From Candidatus Daviesbacteria bacterium GW2011_GWA1_41_61 (GTDB taxonomy: Bacteria; Patescibacteriota; Microgenomatia; Daviesbacterales; UBA10151), in assembly GCA_000997385.1 (NCBI GenBank), contig LCBT01000001.1:49707-113706 (forward strand): a stretch of DNA of 64,000 nt, written 5' to 3'. Below the pieces are notes generated by a model. It did no database searches. It was not told the origin of the DNA and was given only the letters and a program-made list of their open reading frames with translations. Positions within the stretch are counted from its first letter, which is position 1. The number at the start of each line of letters is the position of its first letter. Below are positions 6,110-56,133 of this stretch, piece after piece. A program made the translations under genes and the position numbers.

Positions 6110-6183
6110 GCGGGATTGGTTCAGTGGCAGAACGCTACCTTCCCAAGGTAGAAATGCGAGTTCGATTCTCGTATCCCGCTCCA
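6110..6183 (+). tRNA. tRNA-Gly (anticodon CCC), CCA encoded
   Basis: Acceptor GCGGGAT/ATCCCGC, anticodon stem CTACC/GGTAG with loop TTCCCAA, T-loop TTCGATT, discriminator U and a 3' CCA. Confidence 0.85.
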
Positions 6184-7243: not shown

Positions 7244-8119
7244 TTATTTCTTCTGTAGTTTTTTATTTTGTTCCTTAGGTAAATAATTCTGTGATGTAAT
7301 CACTTTTCTGCCGGTTTCGCGTTCAAGATTTGACCTGGCATCTCCGGCAATTTTGCCACCACGTCTGGAAACCTTTTTATTTTTCTCAAACCCTCGAGGG
7401 TGTTCTGTTTTGGTAATCTCTGTGGTGGCTGCTTCACCAAGTTGCGAGAATAAAAGTTCCAAGTCACTCATATGATCACGTAGATTTTGACGCTTGAGTC
7501 CTTTTATTTTCTTATATTCAGATGGAGTAACACCGAAGGTTGCTTTGGATATTTCTGCAGTTAATATTTCGTACTCTTTTGCCAGTTCTACACCATGTTT
7601 TTGCCATTCGTCTGTTAATTCTTCCCTAATGGCAATAGAACGCATCCGTCTTTCGATCCAATCCTCCGGATATCCTTTGGCTTTGTAAAGTGCTCTAGCC
7701 CGCTTTTGAGCTAACTCAGGGTCTTCTATTTCCTGCACTCTTTCATAACCAACTCTGGCTAACCATCTTTTAAAAGGTTCTGCCTTAGGTGAAGGAATTG
7801 ATTGGATAATCCTAAAAATACCTTCAGTATTAGCACATCTTACTTTCTGTTTTCCTCCTGAGGTTTCAATTAAAAGGGGGTGTTCAATTTGAACCCACCC
7901 TTTAGCCAATTCATCATCTCGGTTAAGCATATTCTTTAGGTATTGCTTGGGGTTTTGCGAATCTGTTAAAGCAGCGATTACATCTGTAATAACAAACCAC
8001 CATTCATTTTGATAAATTGTTTTACGGATTTTCCTATTTCGGAAAATGGCTATTTTAGTTGTTTGCGCTGTTTCTTGATTCATCGTTGTTAAAAATTGTT
8101 GCTGTACTTTATTATACAT
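7244..8119 (-). CDS. Bro-N domain protein (phage antirepressor-like)
   Basis: The N-terminal region IAIFRNRKIRKTIYQNEWWFVITDVIAALTDSQNPKQYLKNM resembles the Bro-N/KilA-N-like DNA-binding domain of prophage antirepressors. The C-terminal half is a charged helical region. Confidence 0.5.
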   Translation of the reverse strand: MYNKVQQQFLTTMNQETAQTTKIAIFRNRKIRKTIYQNEWWFVITDVIAALTDSQNPKQYLKNMLNRDDELAKGWVQIEHPLLIETSGGKQKVRCANTEGIFRIIQSIPSPKAEPFKRWLARVGYERVQEIEDPELAQKRARALYKAKGYPEDWIERRMRSIAIREELTDEWQKHGVELAKEYEILTAEISKATFGVTPSEYKKIKGLKRQNLRDHMSDLELLFSQLGEAATTEITKTEHPRGFEKNKKVSRRGGKIAGDARSNLERETGRKVITSQNYLPKEQNKKLQKK

Positions 8120-10643: not shown

Positions 10644-10716
10644 GCCAGTGTAGCTTAGAGGAAAAGCGCGACTTTCGTAAAGTCGAAACCGTGGGTTCGA
10701 GTCCCACCACTGGCTC
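10644..10716 (+). tRNA. tRNA-Thr (anticodon CGT)
   Basis: Acceptor GCCAGTG/CACTGGC, anticodon stem CGACT/AGTCG with loop TTCGTAA, T-arm GTGGG-TTCGAGT-CCCAC. Confidence 0.8.
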
Positions 10717-10767
10717 AGATTTTAGGGACTTGAGTAAATAAAAATTTGTTTTAATATTAATTAAGAT

Positions 10768-11499
10768 ATGAAAAGGCAGTCACCCCATTATCGATCATTT
10801 TCATCCCGCCGAGCCAACAAGGGAGGTAAAAGTAAATTAGTTTTTACCCTGATTATTATTGCTATAGTAGCTTATTTTTCCCTAACTTGGTTGATTCCTA
10901 ATCTGATTGGGGGACTCTCCTTTATCAACCGCTCTAACACCCCTCAACAAGCTAGTAAGAAGGAGGCTTTTATCTCCCCTCCTGTTTTAAATATTCCTTT
11001 TGAAGCTACCAATTCTGCCGCCATCAAGATTAAGGGTTACTCTATCCCGGAGGCAATTATTGAGATTTATATTGATGATGAGGTTCAATCAACCATTAAA
11101 GCTGCCTCTGATGGCAACTTTATCTCGGAAGAGGTAGAGTTGAATTTTGGCACTAATAATATTTATGGCAAAACAGTAGATCAGGAAGGTAATAAAAGTT
11201 TACCTTCTAAAACCATTCAGATTATTTATAGTAATGAAAAACCACTGCTGGAGATTACTCAGCCGGAAGATAACAAAATTATGACCGGCGGAGATAAAAA
11301 GGTCACTGTTTCTGGAACTACCAATACCGATAAAGATGTGACCATTGTTATTAATGACACCAGGGTAATTGTGGATTCAGCCGGAAAATTTTCTAAAGTT
11401 ATTAACCTTAATGAAGGGGACAATCAGATAGTCATCGTGGCTACTGACACTTCAGGAAATTCCACTCAACTGACCAGGCAAGTCACCTACCAGCCCTAA
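10768..11499 (+). CDS. Membrane-anchored extracytoplasmic protein with Ig-like (Big-type) beta-sandwich repeats
   Basis: Basic N-terminus plus a TM helix, then Thr/Asn/Asp-rich beta-strand repeats (KVTVSGTTNTDKDVTIVINDTRV...NQIVIVATDTSGNST). Confidence 0.45.
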   Translation: MKRQSPHYRSFSSRRANKGGKSKLVFTLIIIAIVAYFSLTWLIPNLIGGLSFINRSNTPQQASKKEAFISPPVLNIPFEATNSAAIKIKGYSIPEAIIEIYIDDEVQSTIKAASDGNFISEEVELNFGTNNIYGKTVDQEGNKSLPSKTIQIIYSNEKPLLEITQPEDNKIMTGGDKKVTVSGTTNTDKDVTIVINDTRVIVDSAGKFSKVINLNEGDNQIVIVATDTSGNSTQLTRQVTYQP

Positions 11500-11724
11500 A
11501 GTGGGCTGTAGGGGACCAAAACTGAACCACCTCTGCCAAGACATGATACAACAATTCATGGCTTTAGAAAAGTTGGGAATATTTGACGCTGAGAGTGGTA
11601 GTCCTACTGCTTTTTCTTATGCCTAGTTAACAATTCAAAAAGTAAAATTAATCGTGAACCCTGGTCTCTGGCTTCTTCATCAGTGAAATCAATATCATAG
11701 ACTTTGATGGTAGAATCTAAATAA

Positions 11725-12087
11725 ATGAGCCAAGTGATAATTGGTAAAGTATCAAGGCAACAAAAAGATCTCAAAGGCTGGTTAGTGGGCCAGTTCTTGC
11801 CTGAAGACACTCCTTTCAAAGATAATAATGTAGAAATTTATTACAAAACTTTTCCAGCTGGAGATAAAAGCGATAAATTACATAAGCATCCCCAAGGTAA
11901 GGAATATTTAATAGTCATCTCTGGCAAAGCTACGATGAGAATTGGGAACAAGATAGTAGAGCTTCAAGCAGGAGATTATGTGGCAATTCCCAATAATACT
12001 CCTTATTGTTTAGTGGAAGTCATCGAGGATCTCTCAATAATTGGAATTCGTTATCCCAGCATACCTAATAATAAGATACTTCCCTAA
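11725..12087 (+). CDS. Cupin-domain protein (120 aa)
   Basis: Cupin beta-barrel motifs HKHPQGKEYLIVISGKATMRIGNKIVELQAGDYVAIPNNTPY. Confidence 0.5.
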   Translation: MSQVIIGKVSRQQKDLKGWLVGQFLPEDTPFKDNNVEIYYKTFPAGDKSDKLHKHPQGKEYLIVISGKATMRIGNKIVELQAGDYVAIPNNTPYCLVEVIEDLSIIGIRYPSIPNNKILP

Positions 12088-12143
12088 ATATATTCGCTTG
12101 AGGCAAAATATTTTAAGTTAGGAGTAATGTTACAATTTAACCC

Positions 12144-12782
12144 ATGGGTAAACTAGAAAAAATAACCGTTGTTTTATTAAGCTGGAAACGACTTAAAAAT
12201 ATTCCAATAATACTAGATAGCCTTTACCGATCAAAAGATGTGGATGAAATTATTTTATGGAACAATAATACAACTGTCCAATTTTCTTATAAAAATAAGA
12301 AATTATTACTATTTAATTCTCCTAGTAATTTTGGGACCTCAGCAAGATGGTGTGTAGCTTTACTGGCTAAAAATCCCAATATATTGTTTATAGATGATGA
12401 TTTAGTCCTTACACCCTCACAAATCAATATACTACTAAAAAAATATTTATCAGATAATAAAAGAATATATGGTTGTTTTGGAAAAAATTTAGAGGATAAC
12501 AAATATGTTTTTAAGACAGCAAATGGTGAAGTAGACATCGTATTGGGTCGCGTAATGCTATTCAATAAACGATACTTATATCAGTTTTTCCAATGGTCTC
12601 AAGGAAAAGTTGGTAATGTGGAGGATGATATTTTGTTTTCTTTAATATTTAGAAAAAAGCATTATGTTGTGGATGTTGGGGAAATTAAGGAGCTACCAAG
12701 TCCCTATGCTTTATGGAGAAAAAAAGGTCATGGTCGTTTGCGCCAAGAAATGGTAGATTATTGTCTAAAATATATTACTTAA
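12144..12782 (+). CDS. Putative GT-A fold glycosyltransferase (212 aa)
   Basis: N-terminal ITVVLLSWKR segment (analogous to the GT2 xIIPTYN beta-strand) and an acidic FIDDDLVL DxD-like motif. The family assignment is tentative. Confidence 0.4.
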   Translation: MGKLEKITVVLLSWKRLKNIPIILDSLYRSKDVDEIILWNNNTTVQFSYKNKKLLLFNSPSNFGTSARWCVALLAKNPNILFIDDDLVLTPSQINILLKKYLSDNKRIYGCFGKNLEDNKYVFKTANGEVDIVLGRVMLFNKRYLYQFFQWSQGKVGNVEDDILFSLIFRKKHYVVDVGEIKELPSPYALWRKKGHGRLRQEMVDYCLKYIT

Positions 12783-12794
12783 GCCAAAATCCAT

Positions 12795-13376
12795 ATGACT
12801 ATTATCAGGAAATTAATAGCAATCGTTATAAATTTAGCTGTTGTAATATTTGTTTTGATAATTTTTTCCCTTTATAAATTAGTCTCATTTTTTTATACAG
12901 ATAAAAACAAGTGTTTTGAATATTTTTCTCAAACTTTAAGCATCATTCCATTTGATTTTGGTGTTCATACCCGAAGGTATTTTTATAGAAGAGCATTAAA
13001 GCATTGCGGCAAAAAATTTACTACAATGTTTGGAGTTGTATTAACGAAGCAGGAAAGCATTGTTGGCGATAATGTCTATATAAATAAATTCACTATTTTA
13101 GGAGACGTGAAGATTGGGAATAATACTATAATTTCTCAACACTGCTCTTTGTTGAGTGGGGGTAAACAGCATGTTAACCAGAGAACTTCTGAATATATAA
13201 AATTAACAATAGGAAATGATGTCTGGATAGGTGCAAATTCAGTAATCATGGCAAACATAGGAGACAATGCTATTATTGGAGCTGGATCAGTTGTAACAAA
13301 AAAAGTTGACCACCATGTAACAATAGCGGGAAATCCTGCCACAATAATAAAACATGAAGGTATTATTAGCAGTTGA
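12795..13376 (+). CDS. Hexapeptide-repeat (LbH) sugar O-acetyltransferase with an N-terminal TM segment
   Basis: Left-handed beta-helix repeats IGNDVWIGANSVIMANIGDNAIIGAGSVVTKKV of the maltose/galactoside acetyltransferase-like family. Hydrophobic N-terminus LIAIVINLAVVIFVLIIFSLY. Confidence 0.65.
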   Translation: MTIIRKLIAIVINLAVVIFVLIIFSLYKLVSFFYTDKNKCFEYFSQTLSIIPFDFGVHTRRYFYRRALKHCGKKFTTMFGVVLTKQESIVGDNVYINKFTILGDVKIGNNTIISQHCSLLSGGKQHVNQRTSEYIKLTIGNDVWIGANSVIMANIGDNAIIGAGSVVTKKVDHHVTIAGNPATIIKHEGIISS

Positions 13377-14460
13377 TGAATATCCTCCGTACATTTGGGG
13401 AGGAATGGGTAAATCCGTCCGTTTACTAGCGGAATCGCTCTTCTCTCTTAAGGTTGAAATAATTGTACTTACTGTTAACAGGCAGAGTGATAGTGTTATC
13501 CAAGACAGATACCATAATATAAATGTTTTTCGGGTACCTACAAAAAAAGAGAAAGTATTTTTAAAAACATTCTTAGCTAGGGAAAACCCCGATATAATTC
13601 ATATAAATGGTCGACATTATGGCAAACTTGCAAAGTTCTTTCATCAAAATAATATTAGGATTATTTATACCTCACGCTCAAATTTCTTGGAAGAAGTAAG
13701 AACAGGTTCTCTTAGATTTAATAAAAGAAAGCTGCAATATCAAGAGTTACTTCTGCGGTTAGCCAATTATGTTGTTACCACTAGCAAAAACGAAAGCGAA
13801 AGTTTGATGAGTGATTATCCTTGGATACAGAACAAACTTGTTATTATTCCTAATGGTATTGACCTCAAAGAGGATAAGCCTCTAGAGTTGGATGACAAAT
13901 TAAAGTTCTTGAGATCAAAAATGGTATTTTTTGCTGGTAGATTTGTTAAACAGAAAGGAATTGATACATTATTATCTTTAATCCCCCAAATTTTTAAAGA
14001 AAATGAAGAAGTTTCTATTGTTGTCGCTGGAGGACACGGAAAGATAAGCTATGAAAATGAACTATTAAAATTAGTTAATGAATACCCAAAATTAAAGTAT
14101 AAAGGTTGGCTAAATGAAAAGCAGCTTCAAAAATACTACAAACAGGCTAGTATTGTTCTTATGCTCAGCAGTTATGAGCCATTTGGGCTTGTCATTACCG
14201 AAGCTATGGTTAAAGGTTGTGTGGTAATTGCGCATCCTGCTAGTGGCCCTAGAGAAATAATAAGATCTGGATTAAATGGTTTTTTAGTTAATAGGACTGA
14301 ACGACCTCAAATTTTGCATCTAATTCATGATATTCTGGAAAATCAACTTCAAACAAATAAAATTAGAACACAAGCATGGAAAACTATTATGAATCAATAT
14401 ACAATTGATAAAATGGTTAAATTATATTTAAAACTGTATAAACAATGCCATGAAAATTAA
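13354..14460 (+). CDS. Glycosyltransferase family 4 (GT-B)
   Basis: GT4 signature EPFGLVITEAM plus a K/R-rich donor-binding region. Confidence 0.8.
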   Translation: MKVLLAVDEYPPYIWGGMGKSVRLLAESLFSLKVEIIVLTVNRQSDSVIQDRYHNINVFRVPTKKEKVFLKTFLARENPDIIHINGRHYGKLAKFFHQNNIRIIYTSRSNFLEEVRTGSLRFNKRKLQYQELLLRLANYVVTTSKNESESLMSDYPWIQNKLVIIPNGIDLKEDKPLELDDKLKFLRSKMVFFAGRFVKQKGIDTLLSLIPQIFKENEEVSIVVAGGHGKISYENELLKLVNEYPKLKYKGWLNEKQLQKYYKQASIVLMLSSYEPFGLVITEAMVKGCVVIAHPASGPREIIRSGLNGFLVNRTERPQILHLIHDILENQLQTNKIRTQAWKTIMNQYTIDKMVKLYLKLYKQCHEN

Positions 14461-14878
14461 AAAAGAATTATCAGCAGGAGGAGTCTTATTTAAAGAAGTA
14501 GATGGGGAATATTATGTAGCGGTAATACACAGATCTAAGCAAAATGACTGGACTCTTCCTAAAGGTCATGTTGAGCCTGGCGAAAGTTTGGAAGATACGG
14601 CATTAAGAGAAGTTGAGGAAGAAACTAATAATAAAGCGGTTGTGTTAAAAAAGATTGGCAGTTTTTCTTATTCTGTAGAAGACAAAGAAAAAGACATTAC
14701 ATATAAAAGGACTGTGCACTGGTTTTTAATGAAATCTAAGGGGGACAACTCTCATAAGCTTAATTTTGAGACTGATCAAGTCAGATGGTTAAAAGTTGAC
14801 GAAGATTTTAGTTTCATGAATTATGCGAACGATAAATCGATTTTAGGTCAGGGGATAAAATTAATCAATAATTTGTGA
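14450..14878 (+). CDS. NUDIX hydrolase (142 aa), possibly a nucleotide-sugar hydrolase given its context
   Basis: Nudix box GHVEPGESLEDTALREVEEETN. It sits between two glycosyltransferase genes. Confidence 0.7.
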   Translation: MKIKKELSAGGVLFKEVDGEYYVAVIHRSKQNDWTLPKGHVEPGESLEDTALREVEEETNNKAVVLKKIGSFSYSVEDKEKDITYKRTVHWFLMKSKGDNSHKLNFETDQVRWLKVDEDFSFMNYANDKSILGQGIKLINNL

Positions 14879-15751
14879 ACTCCGTTCCCAAGAGTAATTA
14901 GTTTTAGGCAGTAGATTAAATATAGTTCGAATAGTAGTATATGCAATACGGTAAATTAAAAAACAGATAAGATTGCCTATTGGAAGGCGTAAAATCTTCC
15001 CATAATCTAATATCCGCTTGTGTTGAATGTTATAGCTTTCATATATCTCCTTTCTAAAATATTTTTTAATTTGGTTTCTACCGTAATTAATTCTGAAAAA
15101 GCGATTGATATAGTCCCTTATTTCATGGACTCCCCTATAATAGACAAAAGCTTTCCTAATTAATTTAGAATTATTCATGAAATAAATTTGCAAAAATTGG
15201 TCATCGTTTATTAAATCATTTGGCAGCATGGGTAAAAACTTAGTTTTTACACAAAAACACATTCCCGTAAAGAAGGGGTCATTTCCGTTATATAAGTTTG
15301 AACAATATTGTATGTTAAAAATTTTCCATAATAATTTATTGAAAGGGTTAAGATGTGTTTCATTTATCAAACTTCTTGAAGGAAAAGTTATGTAGGTATT
15401 TTTACTTTGTATTTGCTCTATTAATAGCGATAGACTCATACTATCAATTAATACATCGTCATCAATAATTATTAATAACTCTGTCTGTGTTTGGAGATGT
15501 ATTTCATTAATTGCTCGCGATTTACCCTTTGCAAAATTTGGGGTATAAATAACTTTTATGTTTGGATTATTTCGGTAGAGCTTTTCGATTTTCCTATTGG
15601 GTTTCCCATTTAAACAAATAAGAATACGTAACTGTTGAATCCCGAGTAAATCTACACTCTTGATAATTGACTGTACAGTTAAGTTCAAAATTTCAAGGGA
15701 ACTATTATATGAAGGAATACCAAAGGTTATATTATTTTTCTTTTTATCCAT
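14861..15751 (-). CDS. Glycosyltransferase family 2 (GT-A)
   Basis: N-terminal ITFGIPSYNS (GT2 xxIPxYN motif) and an IIIDDD DxD motif. Confidence 0.65.
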   Translation of the reverse strand: MDKKKNNITFGIPSYNSSLEILNLTVQSIIKSVDLLGIQQLRILICLNGKPNRKIEKLYRNNPNIKVIYTPNFAKGKSRAINEIHLQTQTELLIIIDDDVLIDSMSLSLLIEQIQSKNTYITFPSRSLINETHLNPFNKLLWKIFNIQYCSNLYNGNDPFFTGMCFCVKTKFLPMLPNDLINDDQFLQIYFMNNSKLIRKAFVYYRGVHEIRDYINRFFRINYGRNQIKKYFRKEIYESYNIQHKRILDYGKILRLPIGNLICFLIYRIAYTTIRTIFNLLPKTNYSWERSSQIID

Positions 15752-16716
15752 TTCTTTATTTCCTCTATGGAACCATTTAATTCATAACCTTCAATATCTT
15801 GTGTGTCGATTAATTTTGCTATTTTCCTAAGTCGTTTGTTAGATAAAGTCTTATTATCAAAGCTAGGAGTAGCAAATTCTAGATTTATAATTGGGTTTAG
15901 ACAACTTCTGATTGTTTGAGTTATGTTGTTATATAGTTGTAGTTTAATATCAAAATTATTCAATTTAACTGTATAAAAAGGAATATTATTTAATTGTATC
16001 AAGCATAAATATTTAAGTTTTGCTTTTTTGGGTCTTCTTGTTTCTGGAAAATAGTATAATTTGTTAGTGGATGAACTTACCATAAACTTACCTTTCTCTG
16101 AAGTTGAAAACATTTCAGATTCGGCTATATTTTTTCTAAGAGATATCGCTTTGTTTCCTCCTAAGAATATACCACCTTCCGAATTTAATAACAGTCTTTC
16201 ATCAGAAAAATAACTTAAGGTATTATCTTTTGTTAATATTGAGGTTAGTGTTGACTTACCTGCCCTCTGTCCTCCTAGTAAGATTAAACCATTTTCAAAA
16301 TTACTAATAGCTGCACCAGAAATTGAATATATATCATTTTGCTCATAAAACATTTCAAGAATGGGTATTAGTAAAAAGATAATCTGGCTGTATTTAATAA
16401 CATCAGGTATATTTGCGTATATTTCTAAAGACCTCTCATCCATCGTGATTTGATTCTCACGACTAGATTTATGAATTATTTTAAAATCTGCTTGAAATGA
16501 GGTTCCAGGCAATATTTCGGCATCTGCAATATGTGCATGTAAGAAAGGGTCTTTTTGAATATAATCATACAAACCCTTAGAATCAGTTTGTAAACTAATT
16601 AAGACATTATGAGTACGAATTGTGCATTTATAGACATTCATATATTTTTTCGAACTTTTTGGCAACTGCTTGCCAAGAATAATTCTCCTCAATAAATTTT
16701 CGTAGGTTATTCCCAA
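15727..16716 (-). CDS. HprK-like P-loop protein (putative kinase), embedded in a glycosyltransferase cluster
   Basis: Segment SISGAAISNFENGLILLGGQRAGKSTLTSILTKDNTLSYFSDERLLL parallels the HPr kinase/phosphorylase C-terminal domain (Gly-rich strand, G-x-S/A-G-x-GKS-T/E Walker A, then the D-D/E-R motif). Confidence 0.45.
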   Translation of the reverse strand: MGITYENLLRRIILGKQLPKSSKKYMNVYKCTIRTHNVLISLQTDSKGLYDYIQKDPFLHAHIADAEILPGTSFQADFKIIHKSSRENQITMDERSLEIYANIPDVIKYSQIIFLLIPILEMFYEQNDIYSISGAAISNFENGLILLGGQRAGKSTLTSILTKDNTLSYFSDERLLLNSEGGIFLGGNKAISLRKNIAESEMFSTSEKGKFMVSSSTNKLYYFPETRRPKKAKLKYLCLIQLNNIPFYTVKLNNFDIKLQLYNNITQTIRSCLNPIINLEFATPSFDNKTLSNKRLRKIAKLIDTQDIEGYELNGSIEEIKKWIKRKII

Positions 16717-17782
16717 AATTTTTCCTTATATTTTTATTTCTAACTAAATACATTAAGTTCTGGTAGAATTTATTGTAACTATTCGCAGTTATGTAAGGTA
16801 ATAATTTACCTTTTATCAAAGTTTGGGCGACTCCTCCTTTGCTGGTTACTACAATCGGAAGAGAACACGACATCGCTTCTAATGAAACCATGGCAAAAGG
16901 TTCGTTCCATATAGAAGGTAATATAAAAATGTCTGATAATTGGTAATATTTTATTAATTCTTCCTGAGGAATTGCTCCAAGTAATACTACGGTTTTATTC
17001 TCTATATAAAGCTGTAGTTCACGTCCTAAATATTCTTTTAATGACCCATCTCCTGCAATAAAGAATTTAATTTTTTGATCCGCTGTTTGGCACTGTTTCA
17101 CTAACTTTGGTAACCATTTAACACCCTTTTCTTCTATTAGCCTTCCAGCAAATAACACCACCACATCTTCGTGACTGAGATCGTAATCTTTTCTGTATTT
17201 GTTATATAATTTTGGGTCCATTCTGAATTTATTTATATCCACGCCGGTTGACGCTATATTTATTTTTTGTTTCCCTACTCCCACCATTTTAACTATATCG
17301 TTAACTATAGTTTCTGAATCTGTTGCAAAGCCATCCAGTTTTTGTGCAACTTTTAAGAAATCAGTCATAGTTTGATTACCCTTAGATTCATGTGTTTCGC
17401 TGCCATGGCAAGTACCAATGGTTTTAAATTTACCAAAGTTTTTTGCGAATAATGCCGGTATTGGTGATACAAGCAGGTGTTGAACGTTTACAACATCTAA
17501 ATTAACGTTACGGTCAAGAGATAGCAAAGCTTTAGTGTAAACGGAAATGGTATCATTCAATTGATTTGCATCAAGAAAACAGTTTTTCCAGCTACCAAAT
17601 GGTTCTGTATCTAATTGAATCATTTTGGCATACTGTAAATGAACTAGCTTATTTGGTGTATCCGCAATTATATAAACTTCATGACCTCTCTGAGCTAGAG
17701 CCTCTCCTAATTCGCGTGTGTACAAGCAACTCCCTGCTGGCTTATCTAACCCCATATTGAAAAGTAATAAAGCTATCTTCAT
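16628..17782 (-). CDS. Glycosyltransferase family 4 (GT-B)
   Basis: GT4 signature NEPFAMVSLEAMSCSLPIVVTSKGG. Confidence 0.8.
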   Translation of the reverse strand: MKIALLLFNMGLDKPAGSCLYTRELGEALAQRGHEVYIIADTPNKLVHLQYAKMIQLDTEPFGSWKNCFLDANQLNDTISVYTKALLSLDRNVNLDVVNVQHLLVSPIPALFAKNFGKFKTIGTCHGSETHESKGNQTMTDFLKVAQKLDGFATDSETIVNDIVKMVGVGKQKINIASTGVDINKFRMDPKLYNKYRKDYDLSHEDVVVLFAGRLIEEKGVKWLPKLVKQCQTADQKIKFFIAGDGSLKEYLGRELQLYIENKTVVLLGAIPQEELIKYYQLSDIFILPSIWNEPFAMVSLEAMSCSLPIVVTSKGGVAQTLIKGKLLPYITANSYNKFYQNLMYLVRNKNIRKNFGNNLRKFIEENYSWQAVAKKFEKIYECL

Positions 17783-17786
17783 TTGT

Positions 17787-18215
17787 TTACTTCCTTTCTC
17801 CTAATACTTCCGGTATTAAAGTGAGTATATCTCTTTCTAATTCTTCTGGAGTTGCGGAACCATGAATTGCATTATATAAATAGTTTTCCGCATAAAGACC
17901 CCTCAAACCAGCCCCTTCCCTATTACTAAGTTTAGTATAACCTATGAGATTTCTTGTTCTTTGTATGGCATTTTCACCCTTTAGAAGCAAGACCTCCGAT
18001 TCTCCAGATGTTAGATAACTTTCAATTAAAGGCATAAGATGTCTTTCTCTCAATTTACCAGTTATTGTACGAGCTTGTTCCATAGTTAATTGAAGGATCT
18101 TTTTATATATTATTTCTAATCCAGCATCAATAAAGGCTTGTTCTATCACCGGAGCCAAACCTTTATTCATAGTATCTGGTTTAATCATCGCTAATGTTAA
18201 TTCATGCTCGCTCAT
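17787..18215 (-). CDS. ndk: Nucleoside diphosphate kinase
   Basis: LTLAMIKPD N-terminal motif and active-site histidine motif NAIHGS. Length 142 aa. Confidence 0.8.
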   Translation of the reverse strand: MSEHELTLAMIKPDTMNKGLAPVIEQAFIDAGLEIIYKKILQLTMEQARTITGKLRERHLMPLIESYLTSGESEVLLLKGENAIQRTRNLIGYTKLSNREGAGLRGLYAENYLYNAIHGSATPEELERDILTLIPEVLGERK

Positions 18216-18341
18216 AACTTAGTATTATAGGATAACGTACGTTTATTGTAAAATTGCCGATCGTTGACCTTATTTCATAAGGTCAACTGGGTGTTTTGTA
18301 TGGTCCATTTAATAAATGGATAGGATCAAAAAAGATAATTT

Positions 18342-18725
18342 ATGATAAAAGCGATTTTTGGGAAAATAGGAGGAGTCTTAATATTGAGCAGGCGAAAACA
18401 AGTTTTAGAGGATTGGTCAAAGAAATTCAACATAACTTCAGATTATTTGGTTAAAGTTGAGGCAAAACAAATAGATATAAGGTTAGTAACCAATAGAGTG
18501 GTATATTTTCTTGAACACCTGGGGAAAGGATTGTTGGGAATACCCGATCCTATTAAAAGAGCTGCAGCTTGGAGCACTGTTTTTACTGAACCACCAACCT
18601 ATGAAGATTTAGTTTCTAGAACCGCGAGATTACGCAGTCACATCAAGCTAATCTCCAAGGCCAAAAATGCCAAATCTCTTACAGTGGGCTCACCAGGACT
18701 CGAACCTGGGGCCTTTGCAATGTGA
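18342..18725 (+). CDS. Hypothetical ORF (127 aa), doubtful
   Basis: Open frame only. Its last ~40 nt run antisense through tRNA-Val, and it contains the 13-mer TCTTGAACACCTG that is also found in intergenic motif A. It may instead be non-coding. Confidence 0.25.
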   Translation: MIKAIFGKIGGVLILSRRKQVLEDWSKKFNITSDYLVKVEAKQIDIRLVTNRVVYFLEHLGKGLLGIPDPIKRAAAWSTVFTEPPTYEDLVSRTARLRSHIKLISKAKNAKSLTVGSPGLEPGAFAM

Positions 18726-18758
18726 ATGCAACGCTCTAACCAACTGAGCTATGAGCCC
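18685..18758 (-). tRNA. tRNA-Val (anticodon CAC)
   Basis: Reverse complement folds as acceptor GGGCTCA/TGAGCCC, anticodon stem TTGCA/TGCAA with loop TTCACAT, T-arm CCAGG-TTCGAGT-CCTGG, discriminator A. Confidence 0.8.
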
Positions 18759-18820
18759 AACAACACATTTTACCATCATACCTCTTGTCTTACAAACCTA
18801 ATCATTAGATAATATTAAGT

Positions 18821-19432
18821 ATGGATAATAATCTAAACCCTTATAGTTTAGAGTTTGACCCTGAAGGCCAGTCTTTGGGGGACAGAATAAAAAATAACTT
18901 AGTTGAACTTATTGAATTTATCGCCATTATCGGCGCTATTTTAGTAGTAGTGAGATTTTTTGTAGCTGAACCTCATAAAGTCTCCGGAAGCTCAATGGTT
19001 CCTAACTTCCACGATGGAGACTATATTATTACCAATAAAGTAGCCACCCAAATTTCCCAGCCCCAAAGAGGAGAGGTAATCATTCTAAAAAACCCCCGCA
19101 ATATGGATCAAGTCTTTATCAAAAGAGTCATTGGTTTACCAGGAGACCGGGTTATGGTAAGCGGAGGTAAGGTCTATATTAACGGGCAACCCACAGCGGA
19201 ACTCTATTTACCAAAAGGCACTAGGACTTATGGGGGAGCATCTCTCTCTGAAGGTGAGGAGCTGACGGTTCCTCAAGGCCGTTACTTTATAATGGGGGAT
19301 AACCGGGGAGGAAGCTCTGATTCCCGGGAATGGGGTACCATTGGTAAGGACTTAGTAGTAGGCCAAGCTTGGCTCAGATATTGGCCTCCTCAACAGTTTA
19401 CCCTCATTCAAGTGGACAAACCTTCCAGCTAA
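18821..19432 (+). CDS. lepB: Signal peptidase I
   Basis: Box B SGSSMVPNF (catalytic Ser), box D VIGLPGDRV, box E GDNRGGSSDSREWG. N-terminal TM helix. Confidence 0.85.
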   Translation: MDNNLNPYSLEFDPEGQSLGDRIKNNLVELIEFIAIIGAILVVVRFFVAEPHKVSGSSMVPNFHDGDYIITNKVATQISQPQRGEVIILKNPRNMDQVFIKRVIGLPGDRVMVSGGKVYINGQPTAELYLPKGTRTYGGASLSEGEELTVPQGRYFIMGDNRGGSSDSREWGTIGKDLVVGQAWLRYWPPQQFTLIQVDKPSS

Positions 19433-43754: not shown

Positions 43755-44525
43755 TTAGACAGCTCCTTTTCCCAGTAATACTGCCGGGATAGTATTTAAA
43801 ATAAGCCATAGATCATACAAAATTGACCTTCGCTGGACATATTTGGCATCCAATTCCACTCTTTTATCAAAGTTGATCTCTGATCTGCCTGAAACCTGCC
43901 ATAACCCGGTCAGTCCTGGTTTCGCTGACAAAATGATTTTCACAAACCTCTTTGTAGAAGGATACTTTTCCTGTTGTTCCTCAAGTTCAAAAGGGTTGTA
44001 AGCCCGAGGGCCAACTAAACTCATCTCCCCTTTTAAAACATTAAAAAATTGCGGCAGTTCATCAATAGAGGTCTTTCTGATAAACTTACCTGCCCTAGTA
44101 ATCCGCGGATCTTCATCTCTGTCTAATTTATAGCTGTTGTGTTGATATTTTTCCAAAAGCTCTTTAAACTGGGGATCCTTATGCAACAACTCATGGGCTC
44201 CCACAATCATCGACCTGAACTTATACATTTTAAACAACTTACCATCTTTCCCCACTCTCTTAGGGATGTCAGCCAGTATCGGACCTTTAGAATCCAGTTT
44301 AATCAGGAAAGCCATGATCAACATTAAAGGAGAAAGAATAATAATACCAACCAGCGATCCGACTATATCAATCAACCTTTTAAATGTTTCATAACTGAAA
44401 AGACCAACTGAAGGGGTTACTCCTGCCAAAACCTTACTATCTAAGACCAAGGTTTGATCTTGGCTACGCGGGGGAAAAGCTGGATCATTTTCGGAGGAAA
44501 GAACTTGTTCGTTTACTACAGTCAT
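43755..44525 (-). CDS. Polyprenyl-phosphate sugar-1-phosphate transferase (monotopic PGT, WbaP/PglC-like)
   Basis: Bacterial sugar transferase motifs KMYKFRSM, DELPQFFNVLKGEMSLVGPRA and GLWQVSGRS. Confidence 0.8.
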   Translation of the reverse strand: MTVVNEQVLSSENDPAFPPRSQDQTLVLDSKVLAGVTPSVGLFSYETFKRLIDIVGSLVGIIILSPLMLIMAFLIKLDSKGPILADIPKRVGKDGKLFKMYKFRSMIVGAHELLHKDPQFKELLEKYQHNSYKLDRDEDPRITRAGKFIRKTSIDELPQFFNVLKGEMSLVGPRAYNPFELEEQQEKYPSTKRFVKIILSAKPGLTGLWQVSGRSEINFDKRVELDAKYVQRRSILYDLWLILNTIPAVLLGKGAV

Positions 44526-45583
44526 AAGTCGTTGATAACACTTTGAAATCTTTTAATGAAATTTGTCTTGGAAAAATAGGCAGCGTTATTAAAGCACATT
44601 TTCTGATTATAACCCCTTTTGTCCAGAGTCTCTAGCGCTTCAATTAAGCTTTCTACTGTCTGTTCACTAAAAAAATAGCCTGTTTCCCCCTCAATAACAG
44701 TTTCCAAGGATCCCCCTTGCCCATAAGCTATCACCGGTTTACCTAAAGCTTGAGCTTCTAAGGAAACCATCCCAAAATCTTCTTCCCCGGCTACCACTAA
44801 AGCTTTACATCCGGATAAAAGCAAAGTCAACAAATCTTCATCCACACTTCCTAAAAGCTCTACTGTTGGTCCTGCCATCAAAGCTAGATTATGATACTCC
44901 GGACCACTACCAACAATCTTCAAGGACACCTTTAACCTGTTGGCTGCCCCAACCACTAAGTCTACCCTTTTATATTTATTTAGTCTAGTAATCACCAACA
45001 AATATCCCCCATCAAATGTTTGGACACTAGCAAATCTTTCTAAATCCACAAAAGGATAAATTACTTTAGCTTCAGCTTGGTAAATCTTATAAATTCTCTG
45101 TTTAACATTTAGGGAATTGGCTAGCCAAAAATCAACCCTTTTGGATGCCAGGTGATCATAAAGTCTTAAAAAGCTGAGATAAGGAGAAAATATCCCCTCA
45201 ACCCTTTCTCCTGAGAAATTCCACAAAAATCTGGGAGGAGTAGGACAAAAACATACATGTTTTGTCCCGGGTTTGGTAATAATACACTTGGCAAAACGGG
45301 TGGAGTGGGAGATCACCAAATCAAACTTGGAAAAATCAAATTGTTCAAAAGCCAAGGGGTGAAGCGGTAATAAAGTCTTGTATAATTTTTTCCATCCCGG
45401 AATTTTTTGAATAAAAGAGGTGATAATTTTTTTAGAGTGAAAATTTTCTTTTAATAACTTATTATTATCATCATGGGCTAAAGTATAAATTGGAGCTTGG
45501 GGAAAGATCTCTGATAAAGTCACCAGTACCCTCTCAGCTCCCCCCCATTGCACCAGGTCATCATGAACAAGCGCTACCTTCAT
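44522..45583 (-). CDS. Glycosyltransferase family 4 (GT-B)
   Basis: N-terminal MKVALVHDDLVQWGGAERV and a C-terminal EEDFGMVSLEAQALGKPVIA GT4 signature. Confidence 0.7.
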   Translation of the reverse strand: MKVALVHDDLVQWGGAERVLVTLSEIFPQAPIYTLAHDDNNKLLKENFHSKKIITSFIQKIPGWKKLYKTLLPLHPLAFEQFDFSKFDLVISHSTRFAKCIITKPGTKHVCFCPTPPRFLWNFSGERVEGIFSPYLSFLRLYDHLASKRVDFWLANSLNVKQRIYKIYQAEAKVIYPFVDLERFASVQTFDGGYLLVITRLNKYKRVDLVVGAANRLKVSLKIVGSGPEYHNLALMAGPTVELLGSVDEDLLTLLLSGCKALVVAGEEDFGMVSLEAQALGKPVIAYGQGGSLETVIEGETGYFFSEQTVESLIEALETLDKRGYNQKMCFNNAAYFSKTNFIKRFQSVINDL

Positions 45584-45617
45584 TGTCCTAATTGTACCAA
45601 AAGTATAAAATACACCT

Positions 45618-46532
45618 ATGAATACCTATCACATTCCAGTGATGCTTAAGGAGACTCTTCAATTCCTTCAGGTTAAACCTAAAGCTTGGTATATCGATGC
45701 TAATTTAGGAGGCGGAGGTCATACAGAAGGGATTATTAAAGCAAGAAGTAAGGTTTTAGGGATAGATTTAGACCCGGAAGCTATTAGGGAAGTGGCTAAA
45801 AACCATCACCTGGAGGTGAAACTCATTAATGACCACCTTCAGGCTATCTCTGCTGATTTAATCCTTTATCAGTCAAACTTTGCCCACATGGGAGAAGTTG
45901 TTAAAAAACTGCAGTTAGATAAAATCTTAGGAGTACTTTTTGATTTAGGAGTCTCTTCTCATCAGTTGGAGAAACCACAAAGAGGGTTTAGTTTTAACCT
46001 TGAAGCTCCTTTAGACATGAGGATGGACCCACAGCATATGACAGTTACCGCTGCTGATCTAATCAACGCTTTACATGAAAATGAGCTTACCCAACTTATT
46101 CAAAAATATGGGGAAGAAAGATATGCTAAAAGAATCGCCAAGAAAATTGTTGAAGAAAGAAAAAAACAAAGAATAGCCACTACCAACCATCTTGCTCAAA
46201 TCATTACCTCTGTTAGACCCAAATCCAAAGCTGACAGAACTCATCCGGCTACCAGAACTTTTCAAGCGCTGAGGATTGCCGTCAATGACGAGCTCCATAG
46301 TTTAAAGGAAGCTTTACCTCAAGTCTTAGAAGTACTCAGTCCAGGAGGAAGATTGGTAGTGATTAGCTTTCATTCCCTAGAAGATCGGATTGTTAAAAAC
46401 TTTTTTAAAGATGAGAACAAAAAGGGTTCGATCAAAATTATTACTCAAAAACCTTTAATTCCTTCTGAAGAAGAAGTTAAAACTAACCCCCGTTCCAGAA
46501 GCGGTAAACTCCGTGTAGCTGAGAAACTCTAA
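45618..46532 (+). CDS. rsmH: 16S rRNA (cytosine1402-N4)-methyltransferase RsmH (MraW)
   Basis: N-terminus YHIPVMLKETLQFL...YIDANLGGGGHTEGI matches the RsmH consensus. It lies on the opposite strand and about 7 kb from mraZ/ftsL. Confidence 0.9.
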   Translation: MNTYHIPVMLKETLQFLQVKPKAWYIDANLGGGGHTEGIIKARSKVLGIDLDPEAIREVAKNHHLEVKLINDHLQAISADLILYQSNFAHMGEVVKKLQLDKILGVLFDLGVSSHQLEKPQRGFSFNLEAPLDMRMDPQHMTVTAADLINALHENELTQLIQKYGEERYAKRIAKKIVEERKKQRIATTNHLAQIITSVRPKSKADRTHPATRTFQALRIAVNDELHSLKEALPQVLEVLSPGGRLVVISFHSLEDRIVKNFFKDENKKGSIKIITQKPLIPSEEEVKTNPRSRSGKLRVAEKL

Positions 46533-46533
46533 C

Positions 46534-47643: not shown

Positions 47644-48058
47644 TCTGATTCTTTTGTTTAACTAATTTTACGAATTCATTATAATCCCGAATATAATCCT
47701 CTGGTTTATAAACATCTGAGGCAAGAACTAATAAAATCGTGTTTTCTTGAAAATCATGCATTTCATGCCAAATCATTTTATTTAAAAAGATTCCCTCCTC
47801 TGGTTTATCCAAAATAACCTCTTCTCTTCTAATTCCATCATCAAGCACCATTTTAATGTGTCCTTGAATACAAAAAAGAACTTGATGTGTCTGATGATGG
47901 GCATGAAATCCGCGCCCAATTTGTCTTTTAGCCTGAGTAATATAATAAATTCTCTTAATAGAAAAGGGGATATGATCATAATTTTGGGCAAAATAAAGAT
48001 AACAATCATCAAAAATTTTGGGGATAGTAATTAATCTAACCAAGGAATCTCTAATCAT
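47627..48058 (-). CDS. dTDP-sugar 3,4-ketoisomerase, FdtA/QdtA (WxcM-like cupin) family
   Basis: GFHAHHQTHQVLFCIQGHIKMVLDDG...MIWHEMHDF...LLVLASDVYKPEDYIRDYNEF closely parallels the FdtA consensus (RGGHAHK..HQVLIC..DDG..MIWRE..LVLASD.Y...DYIRDYDEF). Confidence 0.75.
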   Translation of the reverse strand: MIRDSLVRLITIPKIFDDCYLYFAQNYDHIPFSIKRIYYITQAKRQIGRGFHAHHQTHQVLFCIQGHIKMVLDDGIRREEVILDKPEEGIFLNKMIWHEMHDFQENTILLVLASDVYKPEDYIRDYNEFVKLVKQKNQNEDKI

Positions 48059-50275: not shown

Positions 50276-50279
50276 ATCT

Positions 50280-52344: not shown

Positions 52345-52347
52345 CGC

Positions 52348-56129: not shown

Positions 56130-56133
56130 CTTT

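What the first reader, a model, noticed from the sequence alone, without database searches (positions are those of the whole stretch)
15727..16716. HprK-like P-loop protein inside a glycosyltransferase cluster
The 329-aa protein carries a G-x-x-x-x-GKST Walker A preceded by a Gly-rich strand and followed by DERLLL. This mirrors the HPr kinase/phosphorylase catalytic domain (GDSGVGKSE...DDR). It overlaps the GT2 gene downstream (15727-15751) and the GT4 gene upstream (16628-16716), which suggests translational coupling. HprK-like kinases are otherwise known from carbon-catabolite signalling and a few RiPP clusters, so one wedged between GT2 and GT4 genes (with a NUDIX and ndk nearby) suggests phosphorylation of a glycan intermediate or a regulatory step in glycan assembly.
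Basis: partly seen in the sequence, partly recalled or inferred. Interest (0 to 1): 0.5.

Follow-up and report, generated by a model that had tools for sequence, protein, structure and literature searches.

The report
Kinase-fold enzyme partnered with a glycosyltransferase
This is a real gene in a Candidatus Daviesbacteria genome for a small, uncharacterised enzyme with the fold of PEP carboxykinase and HPr kinase. It is always encoded just after, and overlapping, one particular glycosyltransferase gene, so it probably adds a phosphate in a sugar-building pathway whose product is unknown.

Summary
ORF 15727-16716(-) exists, but the likely start is ATG 16641 (304 aa, identical to a deposited Daviesbacteria protein). 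That cuts the overlap with the upstream GT4 gene to 14 nt.

The HprK-like reading is right at superfamily level:
- Of 82 full-length relatives, 56 hit HprK_rel_A, 53 HprK_rel_B and 37 Pfam Hpr_kinase_C.
- hhalign against HprK/P gives 94.5% probability.
- The Walker A lysine/serine and the D-E pair align with HprK K161/S162 and D178/D179.

It is not a member of HprK/P, HprK_rel_A/B or PEPCK. All curated thresholds fail, the N-domain differs, there is no EIRGLG signature, and the conserved His is Ser108 here.

The new result is context. An orthologous GT4 lies immediately upstream, overlapping, in 13 of 14 informative loci. NDK and a GT2 recur in both subfamilies (27-61% identity), and a phosphohydrolase (NUDIX, HD or HAD) is usually present. 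No RiPP, PTS, phage or defence links were found.

Best model (inferred): an NTP-dependent kinase acting consecutively with its GT4 partner on a phosphorylated glycoside intermediate. The substrate is unknown. Interest is moderate.

The parts
15727..16641 (-). Gene X: 304-aa PEPCK/HprK-superfamily P-loop protein. The stop codon is included. The likely start is ATG 16641, not TTG 16716.
   Evidence: Searches support the start codon and the identity to P0001. AlphaFold model, pLDDT 96.3. PEPCK and HprK fold matches; hhalign.
16249..16275 (-). Walker A / P-loop, G123-G-Q-R-A-G128-K129-S130-T131
   Evidence: G128 and K129 are in 82 of 82 relatives, and position 130 is S or T in 82 of 82. It aligns with HprK G155..K161-S162 and PEPCK K254-T255.
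16195..16206 (-). S146-D147-E148-R149, the 'kinase-2' acidic pair
   Evidence: It aligns with HprK D178-D179 and E. coli PEPCK D268-D269. D147 is D in 60 and N in 19 of 82. E148 is E in 56 and D in 20 of 82.
16318..16320 (-). Ser108, at the position of the family's conserved His (HprK His140 / PEPCK His232)
   Evidence: His in 72 of 82 relatives. Ser or Cys only in the window's own subclade.
16628..17782 (-). Partner glycosyltransferase GT4 ('GT4up'). Its stop overlaps the start of X by 14 nt.
   Evidence: Pfam Glycos_transf_1 4e-32 and Glyco_transf_4 1e-13. An ortholog (28-72% identity) lies directly upstream of X in L001-L004, L006, L007, L013 and L015-L018, and 2.6 kb upstream in L012. The best solved relatives are BshA, SPS and MshA.
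17787..18215 (-). Nucleoside-diphosphate kinase, first gene of the unit. Its stop lies 4 nt before the GT4 ATG.
   Evidence: Pfam NDK 2e-25. NDK is also upstream in L001, L002, L004 and L016-L018. In L016-L018 it is fused to a PolyA_pol-head nucleotidyltransferase; the domain scan was run on L018, and L016/L017 are inferred from ORF size.
14861..15751 (-). GT2 glycosyltransferase, last gene of the unit. Its start overlaps the end of X by 25 nt.
   Evidence: Pfam Glycos_transf_2 9e-12. The same position is conserved in L001-L003 and L008. A GT2 is also in the sister operon.
18224..18252 (-). Promoter-like site (TTTACA-17-TATAAT, 11 of 12) just upstream of NDK
   Evidence: Best consensus match in 14300-18900. 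The total number of sites is not above chance, so this is only suggestive.
14450..14878 (+). NUDIX hydrolase, convergent with GT2. Their 3' ends overlap by 18 nt.
   Evidence: Pfam NUDIX 1e-19. Conserved in L001-L003.
13354..14460 (+). Second GT4 glycosyltransferase ('GT4b') of the convergent unit
   Evidence: Pfam Glycos_transf_1 2e-31. Conserved in L001-L003.
12795..13376 (+). Hexapeptide-repeat acyl/acetyltransferase with a hydrophobic N-terminus
   Evidence: Pfam Hexapep 1.7e-15. Conserved in L001-L003.
12144..12782 (+). GT64/GT2-like glycosyltransferase
   Evidence: Pfam Glyco_transf_64 1e-10. Present in L001.

Best explanation
Gene X (15727-16641, minus strand) encodes a soluble, roughly 300-residue, NTP-binding phosphotransferase of the PEP-carboxykinase/HPr-kinase P-loop superfamily.

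It belongs to a distinct, uncharacterised family that is neither HprK/P, nor the RiPP-associated HprK-related kinases, nor PEPCK. It is the third gene of a compact, probably translationally coupled unit, NDK-GT4-X-GT2.

Shown:
- the fold
- the conserved Walker A Lys/Ser and acidic D-E pair
- the obligatory pairing with one orthologous GT4
- the recurrence of NDK, a GT2 and a phosphohydrolase

Inferred: X uses a nucleoside triphosphate to phosphorylate either the acceptor or the product of its partner GT4. That GT4 is a retaining GT-B enzyme whose best solved relatives, BshA, MshA and sucrose-phosphate synthase, glycosylate small anionic or phosphorylated acceptors. Phosphorylation and glycosylation would then be consecutive steps on one intermediate.
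- GT2 and the variable tailoring enzymes extend it. These are acetyltransferase, GT4b and GT64 here, and carbamoyltransferase, methyltransferase or a radical SAM (rSAM) enzyme in relatives.
- NDK rebalances NDP and NTP.
- A NUDIX, HD or HAD hydrolase removes the phosphate or nucleotide.

The chemical identity of the substrate and product is unknown.
For: Real gene:
- Relatives at 52-85% identity sit in the same gene order.
- AlphaFold pLDDT is 96.3 with an 82-sequence alignment.

Fold:
- Foldseek PDB: the top 35 hits are all ATP-PEPCK, E down to 2.6e-11.

Profiles:
- Of 82 relatives, 56 hit HprK_rel_A, 53 HprK_rel_B, 33 hpr-ser, 37 PF07475 and 9 PEPCK.
- The family profile finds HprK/P structures at E 1.4e-6.
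- hhalign gives 94.5% against HprK and 89.6% against E. coli PckA.

Catalytic motifs are retained. K129/S130 align with K161/S162 and K254/T255. D147/E148 align with D178/D179 and D268/D269. G161-G162 align with the PEPCK GG.

Partnering:
- A GT4up ortholog is immediately upstream and overlapping X in the window, L001-L004, L006, L007, L013 and L015-L018.
- It is 2.6 kb upstream in L012. In L010 there is no GT4 within the 5.4 kb contig.
- NDK and a GT2 are present in both the window subfamily and the sister subfamily (X 27-29% identical).
- A phosphohydrolase is present in nearly every sufficiently long locus: NUDIX in the window, L001-L003 and L013 (with a short NUDIX-hit ORF in L007); HD in L004, L005 and L015-L018; HAD in L012, L013 and L018.

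Gene packing: NDK stop, 4 nt, GT4 ATG. GT4/X overlap 14 nt. X/GT2 overlap 25 nt. The best promoter-like site lies upstream of NDK.

The full-length best solved relatives of GT4up are BshA and MshA. SPS also scores well but only over the C-terminal half.
Against: - No biochemical evidence exists, and no characterised member of this family was found.
- The window protein alone is only weakly HprK-like: TIGR04352 E 7e-4, 18.7 bits, and no Pfam hit.
- The His conserved in 72 of 82 relatives (HprK His140 / PEPCK His232, a metal or active-site residue) is Ser108 here. The PEPCK Mn-ligand Lys213 has no counterpart. Catalysis may therefore differ or be weakened.
- The similarity of GT4up to small-acceptor GT4s is not specific. 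The control GT4b also hits SPS, GlgA and BshA, though only over its C-terminal half.
- Characterised non-PTS relatives of HprK phosphorylate peptide serines (PMC8498205), which favours a protein substrate.
- The phosphohydrolases belong to three unrelated, very common families, so their recurrence could be coincidental.
Confidence: 0.5

Rival explanations
1. X is a protein or peptide serine kinase, like HprK/P and the lasso-peptide kinases. It would either phosphorylate a Ser on a secreted or surface protein that the neighbouring GTs then decorate (phosphoglycosylation, as in pseudomycoidin), or phosphorylate GT4/GT2 to regulate glycan synthesis. The latter would be functionally analogous to BY-kinases in capsule loci.
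For: - All biochemically characterised members on the HprK side of the superfamily act on Ser of proteins or peptides. A kinase-plus-glycosylation precedent exists in pseudomycoidin (PMC8498205).
- Sequence profiles place the family nearer HprK_rel_A/B than PEPCK.
- The PEPCK small-molecule and Mn ligands K213 and H232 are not conserved in the window protein.
- The sister operon also carries a nucleotidyltransferase domain.
Against: - No precursor peptide, PqqD/RRE, lasso cyclase or protease, or rSAM gene lies in the window cluster or in L001-L003. Intergenic space is minimal.
- All curated RiPP-kinase thresholds are missed by more than 180 bits.
- The whole-protein fold, including the N-domain, matches PEPCK, which encloses a small substrate.
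Confidence: 0.25
2. The GT4-X module belongs to a nucleotide or nucleic-acid modification pathway, making a modified nucleotide or hypermodified base, rather than to glycan assembly. X would act as a base or nucleotide kinase.
For: - Distant relatives (L012, L013) sit with thymidylate-synthase-like genes, a small NMP-kinase-like P-loop protein, HAD, a methyltransferase, a carbamoyltransferase and NUDIX. They lie in mobile-element-like neighbourhoods with T4SS, RM, PIN/MazE and AbiE genes.
- The sister operon starts with a PolyA_pol-head NTase-NDK fusion plus HD.
- The window has NDK and NUDIX.
Against: - The window has no thymidylate-synthase-like, NMP-kinase, HAD, HD, carbamoyl- or methyltransferase homologue.
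- Its accessory genes are ordinary glycan enzymes, including an acetyltransferase with a hydrophobic N-terminus.
- X has no relatives in GenBank phages, plasmids or IMG/VR. It has no kinase PHROG hit.
- The only viral structural matches are giant-virus PEPCKs.
- There is no PADLOC system membership.
Confidence: 0.08
3. X is catalytically degenerate, or is not a kinase. Candidates are an NTP-binding scaffold or chaperone for GT4, an NTPase, or a Pi-dependent phosphorylase like the reverse reaction of HprK/P.
For: - The conserved His is lost in the window subclade (Ser or Cys).
- 19 of 82 relatives have N at D147.
- The strict physical coupling of the genes is also compatible with a structural partner.
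Against: - The Walker A Gly/Lys/Ser-Thr are invariant in all 82 relatives. The acidic pair is kept in the window protein. R245, D262, R270 and G290 are conserved.
- This pattern is typical of an active enzyme under purifying selection.
Confidence: 0.1
4. X is a genuine HPr kinase/phosphorylase working in carbon-catabolite signalling, as the UniRef name 'HPr kinase' implies.
For: The UniRef cluster name, and the P-loop and DD-type motif alignment.
Against: - No PF07475, PF02603 or TIGR00679 hit for the window protein.
- The N-domain differs, there is no EIRGLG signature and no His140 equivalent.
- The conserved context is glycosyltransferases, not PTS genes.
Confidence: 0.02

Closest known systems
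HPr kinase/phosphorylase (HprK/P; PF07475, TIGR00679; PDB 1ko7, 1jb1, 1knx)
   Same: - hhalign 94.5% over 81 columns.
- The Walker A Lys/Ser and the acidic pair 17-18 residues downstream align residue for residue.
   Different: - No hit to the family models.
- No MurE/F-like N-domain.
- No EIRGLGII signature or R245 region.
- His140 equivalent is Ser.
- No PTS context.
- The partner is a glycosyltransferase.
ATP-dependent phosphoenolpyruvate carboxykinase (PF01293; PDB 1ii2, 1yvy, E. coli PckA)
   Same: - hhalign 89.6% over 188 columns.
- The P-loop, the DD(E) motif and the GG motif align.
   Different: - About 300 aa against 540 aa, a 'mini' version.
- The Mn2+ ligands Lys213 and His232 are not conserved in the window protein.
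- No family-model hit.
- Non-metabolic, glycosyltransferase-linked context.
HprK-related kinases A/B and lasso-peptide kinases (TIGR04352, TIGR04355; paeninodin and pseudomycoidin kinases), and ScmC (TIGR04249 / PF27840)
   Same: - Nearest curated sequence families: 56, 53 and 17 of 82 relatives give sub-threshold hits.
- Similar size of about 280-350 aa.
- A precedent for an HprK-type kinase working together with glycosylation (PMC8498205).
   Different: - Scores are far below the cut-offs (18.7 against 200 bits).
- No RiPP genes (precursor, PqqD/RRE, cyclase, rSAM) next to the window gene.
- The conserved partners are GT4, GT2 and NDK.
Kinase / GT4 / phosphatase logic of phosphorylated-acceptor glycoside pathways (MshA + MshA2, sucrose-phosphate synthase + phosphatase, BshA)
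   Same: - The best solved relatives of GT4up are BshA, SPS and MshA.
- A phosphohydrolase (NUDIX, HD or HAD) accompanies GT4-X in almost every long locus.
   Different: - Those pathways take their phosphorylated acceptor from central metabolism and have no dedicated PEPCK/HprK-fold kinase.
- The resemblance is functional analogy only and is not specific (control).
BY-kinases (Wzc/CapB) and sugar kinases of LPS cores (WaaP, KdkA, WbdD)
   Same: Kinases embedded in polysaccharide gene clusters that regulate or phosphorylate glycans (from general knowledge).
   Different: Unrelated folds (MinD-like P-loop, or eukaryotic-protein-kinase-like). No sequence or structural match here.

Membership tests
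HPr kinase/phosphorylase (TIGR00679 / PF07475 + PF02603) | Scores above the curated threshold of the family models | tested here: not met
   The window protein has 0 Pfam families at E<=1 and no TIGR00679 hit. Only 33-37 of 82 relatives give sub-threshold hits.
HPr kinase/phosphorylase (TIGR00679 / PF07475 + PF02603) | Walker A GxSGxGKS followed about 17 residues later by the catalytic DD | tested here: met
   GGQRAGKS and D147-E148 align with G155..K161-S162 and D178-D179. L. casei numbering was checked on the 1jb1 sequence.
HPr kinase/phosphorylase (TIGR00679 / PF07475 + PF02603) | Conserved His before the P-loop (His140) | tested here: not met
   Ser108 in the window protein. His in 72 of 82 relatives.
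HPr kinase/phosphorylase (TIGR00679 / PF07475 + PF02603) | Family signature EIRGLGII and the downstream Arg (R245) region | tested here: not met
   The hhalign and hmmsearch alignments stop at the GG motif. No E-[IV]-R-G-x-G motif is in the sequence.
HPr kinase/phosphorylase (TIGR00679 / PF07475 + PF02603) | MurE/F-like N-terminal domain | tested here: not met
   [not shown]
HPr kinase/phosphorylase (TIGR00679 / PF07475 + PF02603) | PTS / HPr (ptsH) partner in the genome | not tested
   Only the ORFs between about 7 and 22 kb of the window were annotated, and none is a PTS gene. The whole genome is not available.
HprK-related kinase A / B (TIGR04352 / TIGR04355), lasso-type RiPP kinases | Scores above the curated threshold (200 bits) | tested here: not met
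   18.5-18.7 bits (E 7-9e-4) and 11.7 bits (E 0.099).
HprK-related kinase A / B (TIGR04352 / TIGR04355), lasso-type RiPP kinases | Neighbouring RiPP genes (precursor, PqqD/RRE, cyclase/protease, NTP_transf_5) | tested here: not met
   None in window 10.5-19.5 kb or in L001-L003. All flanking genes are GTs, NDK, NUDIX and an acetyltransferase.
ATP-PEPCK (PF01293 / TIGR00224) | Scores above the family threshold; about 540 aa with full N- and C-domains | tested here: not met
   No Pfam or NCBIfam PEPCK hit for the window protein. It is 304 aa.
ATP-PEPCK (PF01293 / TIGR00224) | Mn2+ and substrate ligands Lys213, His232, Asp269 | tested here: not met
   In the hhalign alignment these correspond to I87/F88, S108 and E148. 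Only the acidic position is kept.
PEP-carboxykinase-like / HprK P-loop superfamily (fold level) | Fold match clearly above other P-loop kinases, with profile-profile support | tested here: met
   [not shown]
ScmC (TIGR04249 / PF27840) | Hit to the family model and a SynChlorMet rSAM cassette context | tested here: not met
   No hit for the window protein at E<=1. 17 of 82 relatives hit weakly. PF27840 is precomputed only on P0006, and weakly on P0010 and P0014. PF27840 is not in the local Pfam copy, so it could not be scored directly.
[quoted passage not shown] | Sequence or structural similarity to phage kinases, with a dU/dC hydroxymethylase nearby | tested here: not met
   No tblastn hit in phages. 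No kinase PHROG. BFVD gives only giant-virus PEPCK. No TS-like gene in the window.

The most novel reading that the evidence does not exclude
NDK-GT2-GT4-X is a self-contained 'phospho-glycoside' module of ultra-small (CPR-type) bacteria. In it, a miniature PEPCK/HprK-fold kinase creates a phosphate handle on a small acceptor, or on a protein serine. The partner GT4 and GT2 then build the glycan on or next to that handle. This would be the first PEPCK/HprK-superfamily kinase dedicated to glycoconjugate biosynthesis. Its product could be a new class of phosphodiester-linked glycan or a carbamoylated or acetylated phosphoglycoside.
Probability: 0.2. Interest if true: 0.7.

Novelty: new variant of a known kind. 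Interest (0 to 1): 0.45.

Why it matters
Kinases of the HprK/PEPCK superfamily are so far known from three settings: central carbon metabolism (PEPCK), carbon-catabolite signalling (HprK/P), and tailoring of a few ribosomal peptides.

A separate family with at least about 270 representative clusters, hard-wired to a glycosyltransferase and to NDK, would extend this fold to glycoconjugate biosynthesis. The family occurs in organisms with CPR-like, low-GC genomes.

It would also give a handle on the almost unknown envelope and glycan chemistry of Candidate Phyla Radiation bacteria. The four-gene core is small enough to express and assay directly.

If the function turns out to be routine, such as a regulatory ATPase, the finding is only an annotation improvement. 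This exact protein is named 'HPr kinase' by UniRef and 'hypothetical protein' by NCBI. Neither name is adequate.

Tried and rejected
- Single-sequence searches were nearly blind. Pfam gave 0 hits, PDB phmmer gave nothing, and the word-indexed protein search found 4 relatives. A 4-sequence profile against PDB also failed.
- AlphaFold with 4 sequences gave pLDDT 46.7 and was discarded. The 82-sequence alignment fixed this.
With A1 on GTDB genomes it returned only one short extra locus, L008.
- RiPP reading: no precursor, PqqD, rSAM or lasso genes lie near the window gene. Kept only as a rival through the protein-Ser-kinase idea.
- Phage DNA hypermodification and 5-HMUDK reading, prompted by the TS-like, NMP-kinase and carbamoyltransferase neighbours in L012 and L013. 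There are no phage, plasmid or IMG/VR relatives, no PHROG kinase hit, no BFVD match and no such genes in the window.
- Defence-system reading: PADLOC gave only a marginal P-loop hit (PD-T4-6, E 0.014) and a generic NUDIX hit.
- Rosetta-stone fusion with GT4: not found. The one long fusion, P0110, is with a BpsA_C polyamine-synthase-like domain.
- The AFDB fold libraries were unavailable.
- Literature searches for HprK-like kinases in glycosyltransferase clusters, and for ScmC, found nothing relevant. The paeninodin kinase paper (PMC4919450) is not held.
Full report
**Observation**

The window comes from a Candidatus Daviesbacteria (CPR, Microgenomates) genome. The protein is 100% identical to deposited entries KKR81449 and related accessions. 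NCBI calls them 'hypothetical protein', and one UniRef cluster calls them 'HPr kinase'.

The deposited protein is 304 aa, and the homologues P0002 and P0003 begin at the same Met (MNVYKC / MKIFKH / MKTFKY). The real start is therefore ATG 16641.

With that start the gene packing is tight:
- The gene overlaps the stop of the upstream GT4 by 14 nt (ATGAATGTCTATAA).
- It overlaps the start of the downstream GT2 by 25 nt.
- The NDK stop lies 4 nt before the GT4 ATG.
- The best sigma-70-like match of the region (TTTACA-17-TATAAT) sits just upstream of NDK. The overall number of such matches is at chance level.

The neighbours are as described:
- GT2 at 14861-15751
- GT4 at 16628-17782
- NDK at 17787-18215
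- convergent NUDIX at 14450-14878
- a second GT4 at 13354-14460
- a hexapeptide acyltransferase at 12795-13376
- a GT64/GT2-like enzyme at 12144-12782

The motifs GGQRAGKST and SDERLLL are present.

**What the protein is**

Alone, the sequence is almost silent:
- No Pfam family at E<=1.
- No PDB sequence match.
- A single weak NCBIfam hit to HprK-related kinase A: E 7-9e-4, 18.5-18.7 bits against a cut-off of 200, covering residues 107-170.
- Only four relatives in the word-indexed search.

A profile of those four, run with full HMMER against 1.84 billion representatives, found 271 proteins at E<=1e-3 and 50 at E<=1e-10. Most of the 150 best hits listed are full-length matches of 280-330 aa.

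I aligned 82 of them (A2) and scanned each member. The counts were 56 hits to HprK_rel_A, 53 to HprK_rel_B, 33 to HPr(Ser) kinase, 37 to Pfam Hpr_kinase_C, 17 to ScmC and 9 to PEPCK models. All were below the curated thresholds.

Further profile evidence:
- The A2 profile finds the solved HprK/P structures (1ko7 at E 1.4e-6, also 1jb1, 2qmh, 1knx, 3tqf) over 57-80 residues. Generic AAA+ hits cover only the 28-30-residue P-loop.
- hhalign of A2 against an HprK/P alignment gives 94.5% probability, E 7.5e-8, over 81 columns. Three of the four HprK sequences came from the PDB alignments. The fourth is my recalled B. subtilis sequence, validated there at E 6e-125.
- hhalign of A2 against E. coli PckA gives 89.6%, E 1.9e-6, over 188 columns.

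**Structure**

With the four-sequence alignment AlphaFold failed (pLDDT 46.7). With A2 it gave pLDDT 96.3 and pTM 0.92.
- Foldseek against the PDB returns ATP-dependent PEPCKs as the top 35 hits. The best is E 2.6e-11 with TM 0.62 on the query.

The protein is therefore a 'mini-PEPCK'-like two-domain member of the PEPCK/HprK P-loop superfamily. Its sequence is nearest to the HprK branch. Its overall architecture is nearest to PEPCK.

**Active site**

In the profile alignments (L. casei numbering verified on the 1jb1 sequence):
- K129/S130 correspond to HprK K161/S162 and PEPCK K254/T255.
- D147/E148 correspond to HprK D178/D179 and PEPCK D268/D269.
- G161-G162 correspond to the PEPCK GG motif, and K164 to K288.

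Across the 82 relatives:
- G128, K129 and S/T130 are invariant.
- D147 is D in 60 and N in 19. E148 is E in 56 and D in 20.
- G162 (76), R245 (64), S260 (67), D262 (76), R270 (81) and G290 (80) are also strongly conserved.

There is one notable deviation. The His found in 72 of 82 relatives aligns with HprK His140 and PEPCK His232. It is Ser108 in the window protein, and Ser or Cys in its close relatives. The PEPCK Mn ligand Lys213 has no counterpart. The protein keeps the phosphoryl-transfer core but may use metal differently.

**Membership**

The protein fails the defining tests for HprK/P:
- no model hit
- no MurE/F-like N-domain
- no EIRGLG signature
- no His140

It also fails for HprK_rel_A/B (scores more than 180 bits below cut-off, and no RiPP neighbours), for PEPCK (size, ligands, model) and for ScmC. 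It passes only at the superfamily level.

**Context, the most informative result**

The three closest relatives (52-61% identity) have the same arrangement. That is NDK-GT4-X-GT2, convergent with hexapeptide transferase-GT4b-NUDIX. The upstream genes are cut off at the contig end in L002 (partial NDK) and L003 (GT4 fragment, no NDK). An 85% relative, on a contig that begins inside X, has X-GT2.

Relatives at only 24-29% identity still have an orthologous GT4 directly upstream and overlapping. This GT4 is 28-35% identical to the window's upstream GT4, and clearly closer to it than to GT4b. It is seen in L004, L006, L007, L013 and L015-L018, and 2.6 kb upstream in L012. Only L010 lacks a GT4 within its 5.4 kb contig; there X is followed by an NAD-dependent sugar epimerase.

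The sister subfamily has a rigid operon: [PolyA_pol-head nucleotidyltransferase fused to NDK]-GT2-HD-GT4-X-carbamoyltransferase. L004 has the same order, but its first gene is cut at the contig end so only the NDK part is seen. One locus adds a B12-rSAM gene, and another a methyltransferase plus HAD.

The core conserved across both subfamilies is thus NDK, GT2, GT4 and X. A phosphohydrolase (NUDIX, HD or HAD) is present in almost every locus long enough to judge. The tailoring genes vary.

The window cluster also has these features:
- It lies in a low-GC stretch, 0.28-0.34 against 0.36-0.46 in the flanks.
- It sits between tRNA-Thr and tRNA-Val.
- X is single-copy in the window.

**Mechanism**

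Shown: the fold, the retained phosphotransfer motifs, the obligate GT4 partnership and the compact operon.

Inferred: X is an NTP-dependent kinase that acts on the acceptor or the product of its partner GT4.
- The best solved relatives of that GT4 are BshA (full length), sucrose-phosphate synthase and MshA. These enzymes glycosylate small anionic or phosphorylated acceptors.
- This hint is weak, because the unrelated GT4b also hits SPS, GlgA and BshA over its C-terminal half.
- The recurring kinase + GT4 + phosphohydrolase triad resembles pathways that run through a phosphorylated glycoside intermediate.
- NDK would rebalance the NDP released by the GTs and the NTP used by X.

I put about 0.5 on this model, and about 0.8 on the narrower statement that X is an active phosphotransferase working in the same pathway as GT4.

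**Rivals**

- A protein or peptide Ser kinase, as in HprK/P and the lasso-peptide kinases. Pseudomycoidin even combines such a kinase with glycosylation of the phosphate (PMC8498205). There are no RiPP genes or precursor ORFs here. I give 0.25, which includes regulatory phosphorylation of the GTs.
- A nucleotide or DNA-modification module. This was suggested by thymidylate-synthase-like, NMP-kinase-like, HAD, methyltransferase and carbamoyltransferase neighbours in mobile-element-like loci L012 and L013.
  - The window has none of these genes.
  - X has no phage, plasmid or IMG/VR relatives.
  - There is no kinase PHROG hit.
  - BFVD gives only giant-virus PEPCKs.
  - I give 0.08.
- A degenerate or non-kinase NTP-binding partner, because of the lost His. 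I give 0.1.
- A true HprK/P, as the UniRef name implies. This is effectively excluded.

No defence-system membership was found.

**Novelty and verdict**

What appears unreported is a distinct, sizeable family of PEPCK/HprK-fold proteins genetically welded to a glycosyltransferase, and to NDK and GT2, in CPR-like genomes. This was checked against the curated libraries and in a limited literature search.

I class it as a new variant of a known kind, of moderate interest (0.45). It is real, conserved and testable with a four-gene construct, but its substrate and product are unknown.

Noticed in passing
window 10644-18758: The glycosyltransferase cluster lies between tRNA-Thr(cgt) at 10644-10716(+) and tRNA-Val(cac) at 18684-18758(-). 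GC is lower here (0.28-0.34 for 12-17 kb) than in the flanks (0.36-0.46). This may be a horizontally acquired island.
   Followed up: partly
window 18342-18725 (+): This 127-aa ORF has no Pfam hit and runs into tRNA-Val on the opposite strand. Its C-terminal peptide (..GSPGLEPGAFAM) looks like translated tRNA sequence. It is probably not a gene, at least at its 3' end.
   Followed up: no
window 7244-8119 (-): A BRO-N domain protein (Pfam Bro-N 8e-15), a domain typical of phages and mobile elements, lies about 1 kb from tRNA-Gly (6110-6183). This hints at a prophage or mobile-element remnant in this CPR genome.
   Followed up: no
window ~44500-63900 (-): A long run of same-strand, tightly packed ORFs includes at least two more GT2-like genes (tblastn hits at 50460-51152 and 55440-56138). 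This looks like a second, larger glycan-type gene cluster in the same window.
   Followed up: no
L018:5978-7231 (also the similar-sized NDK-matching ORFs L016:184-1455 and L017:2148-3401): The sister-subfamily operon begins with a 417-423-aa ORF. In L018 it is a fusion of a PolyA_pol-head (Pol-beta type) nucleotidyltransferase domain with NDK, and it is followed by GT2-HD-GT4-X-carbamoyltransferase. I know of no description of an NTase-NDK fusion.
   Followed up: partly
L012 and L013 (loci of distant relatives P0016 and P0014): GT4 and X sit with thymidylate-synthase-like proteins of odd length (205 aa archaeal type, and 457 aa), an NMP-kinase-like P-loop protein, HAD, a methyltransferase and a NodU-like carbamoyltransferase. 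The regions also carry T4SS, Fic, RM, PIN/MazE and AbiE genes. This could be a nucleotide-modification cassette on mobile elements.
   Followed up: partly
protein P0110 (639 aa, distant relative): The C-terminal two thirds of an X-like domain (residues 435-638) are fused to a BpsA_C domain, which is branched-chain polyamine synthase-like (Pfam 2e-25). This suggests some family members act in small-molecule (polyamine) chemistry.
   Followed up: no
window 14861-14878: The convergent GT2 (minus strand) and NUDIX (plus strand) genes overlap by 18 nt at their 3' ends. No terminator-like hairpin lies between them. The only terminator-like site in 14300-18900 is at 18263-18287(+), upstream of NDK.
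   Followed up: no
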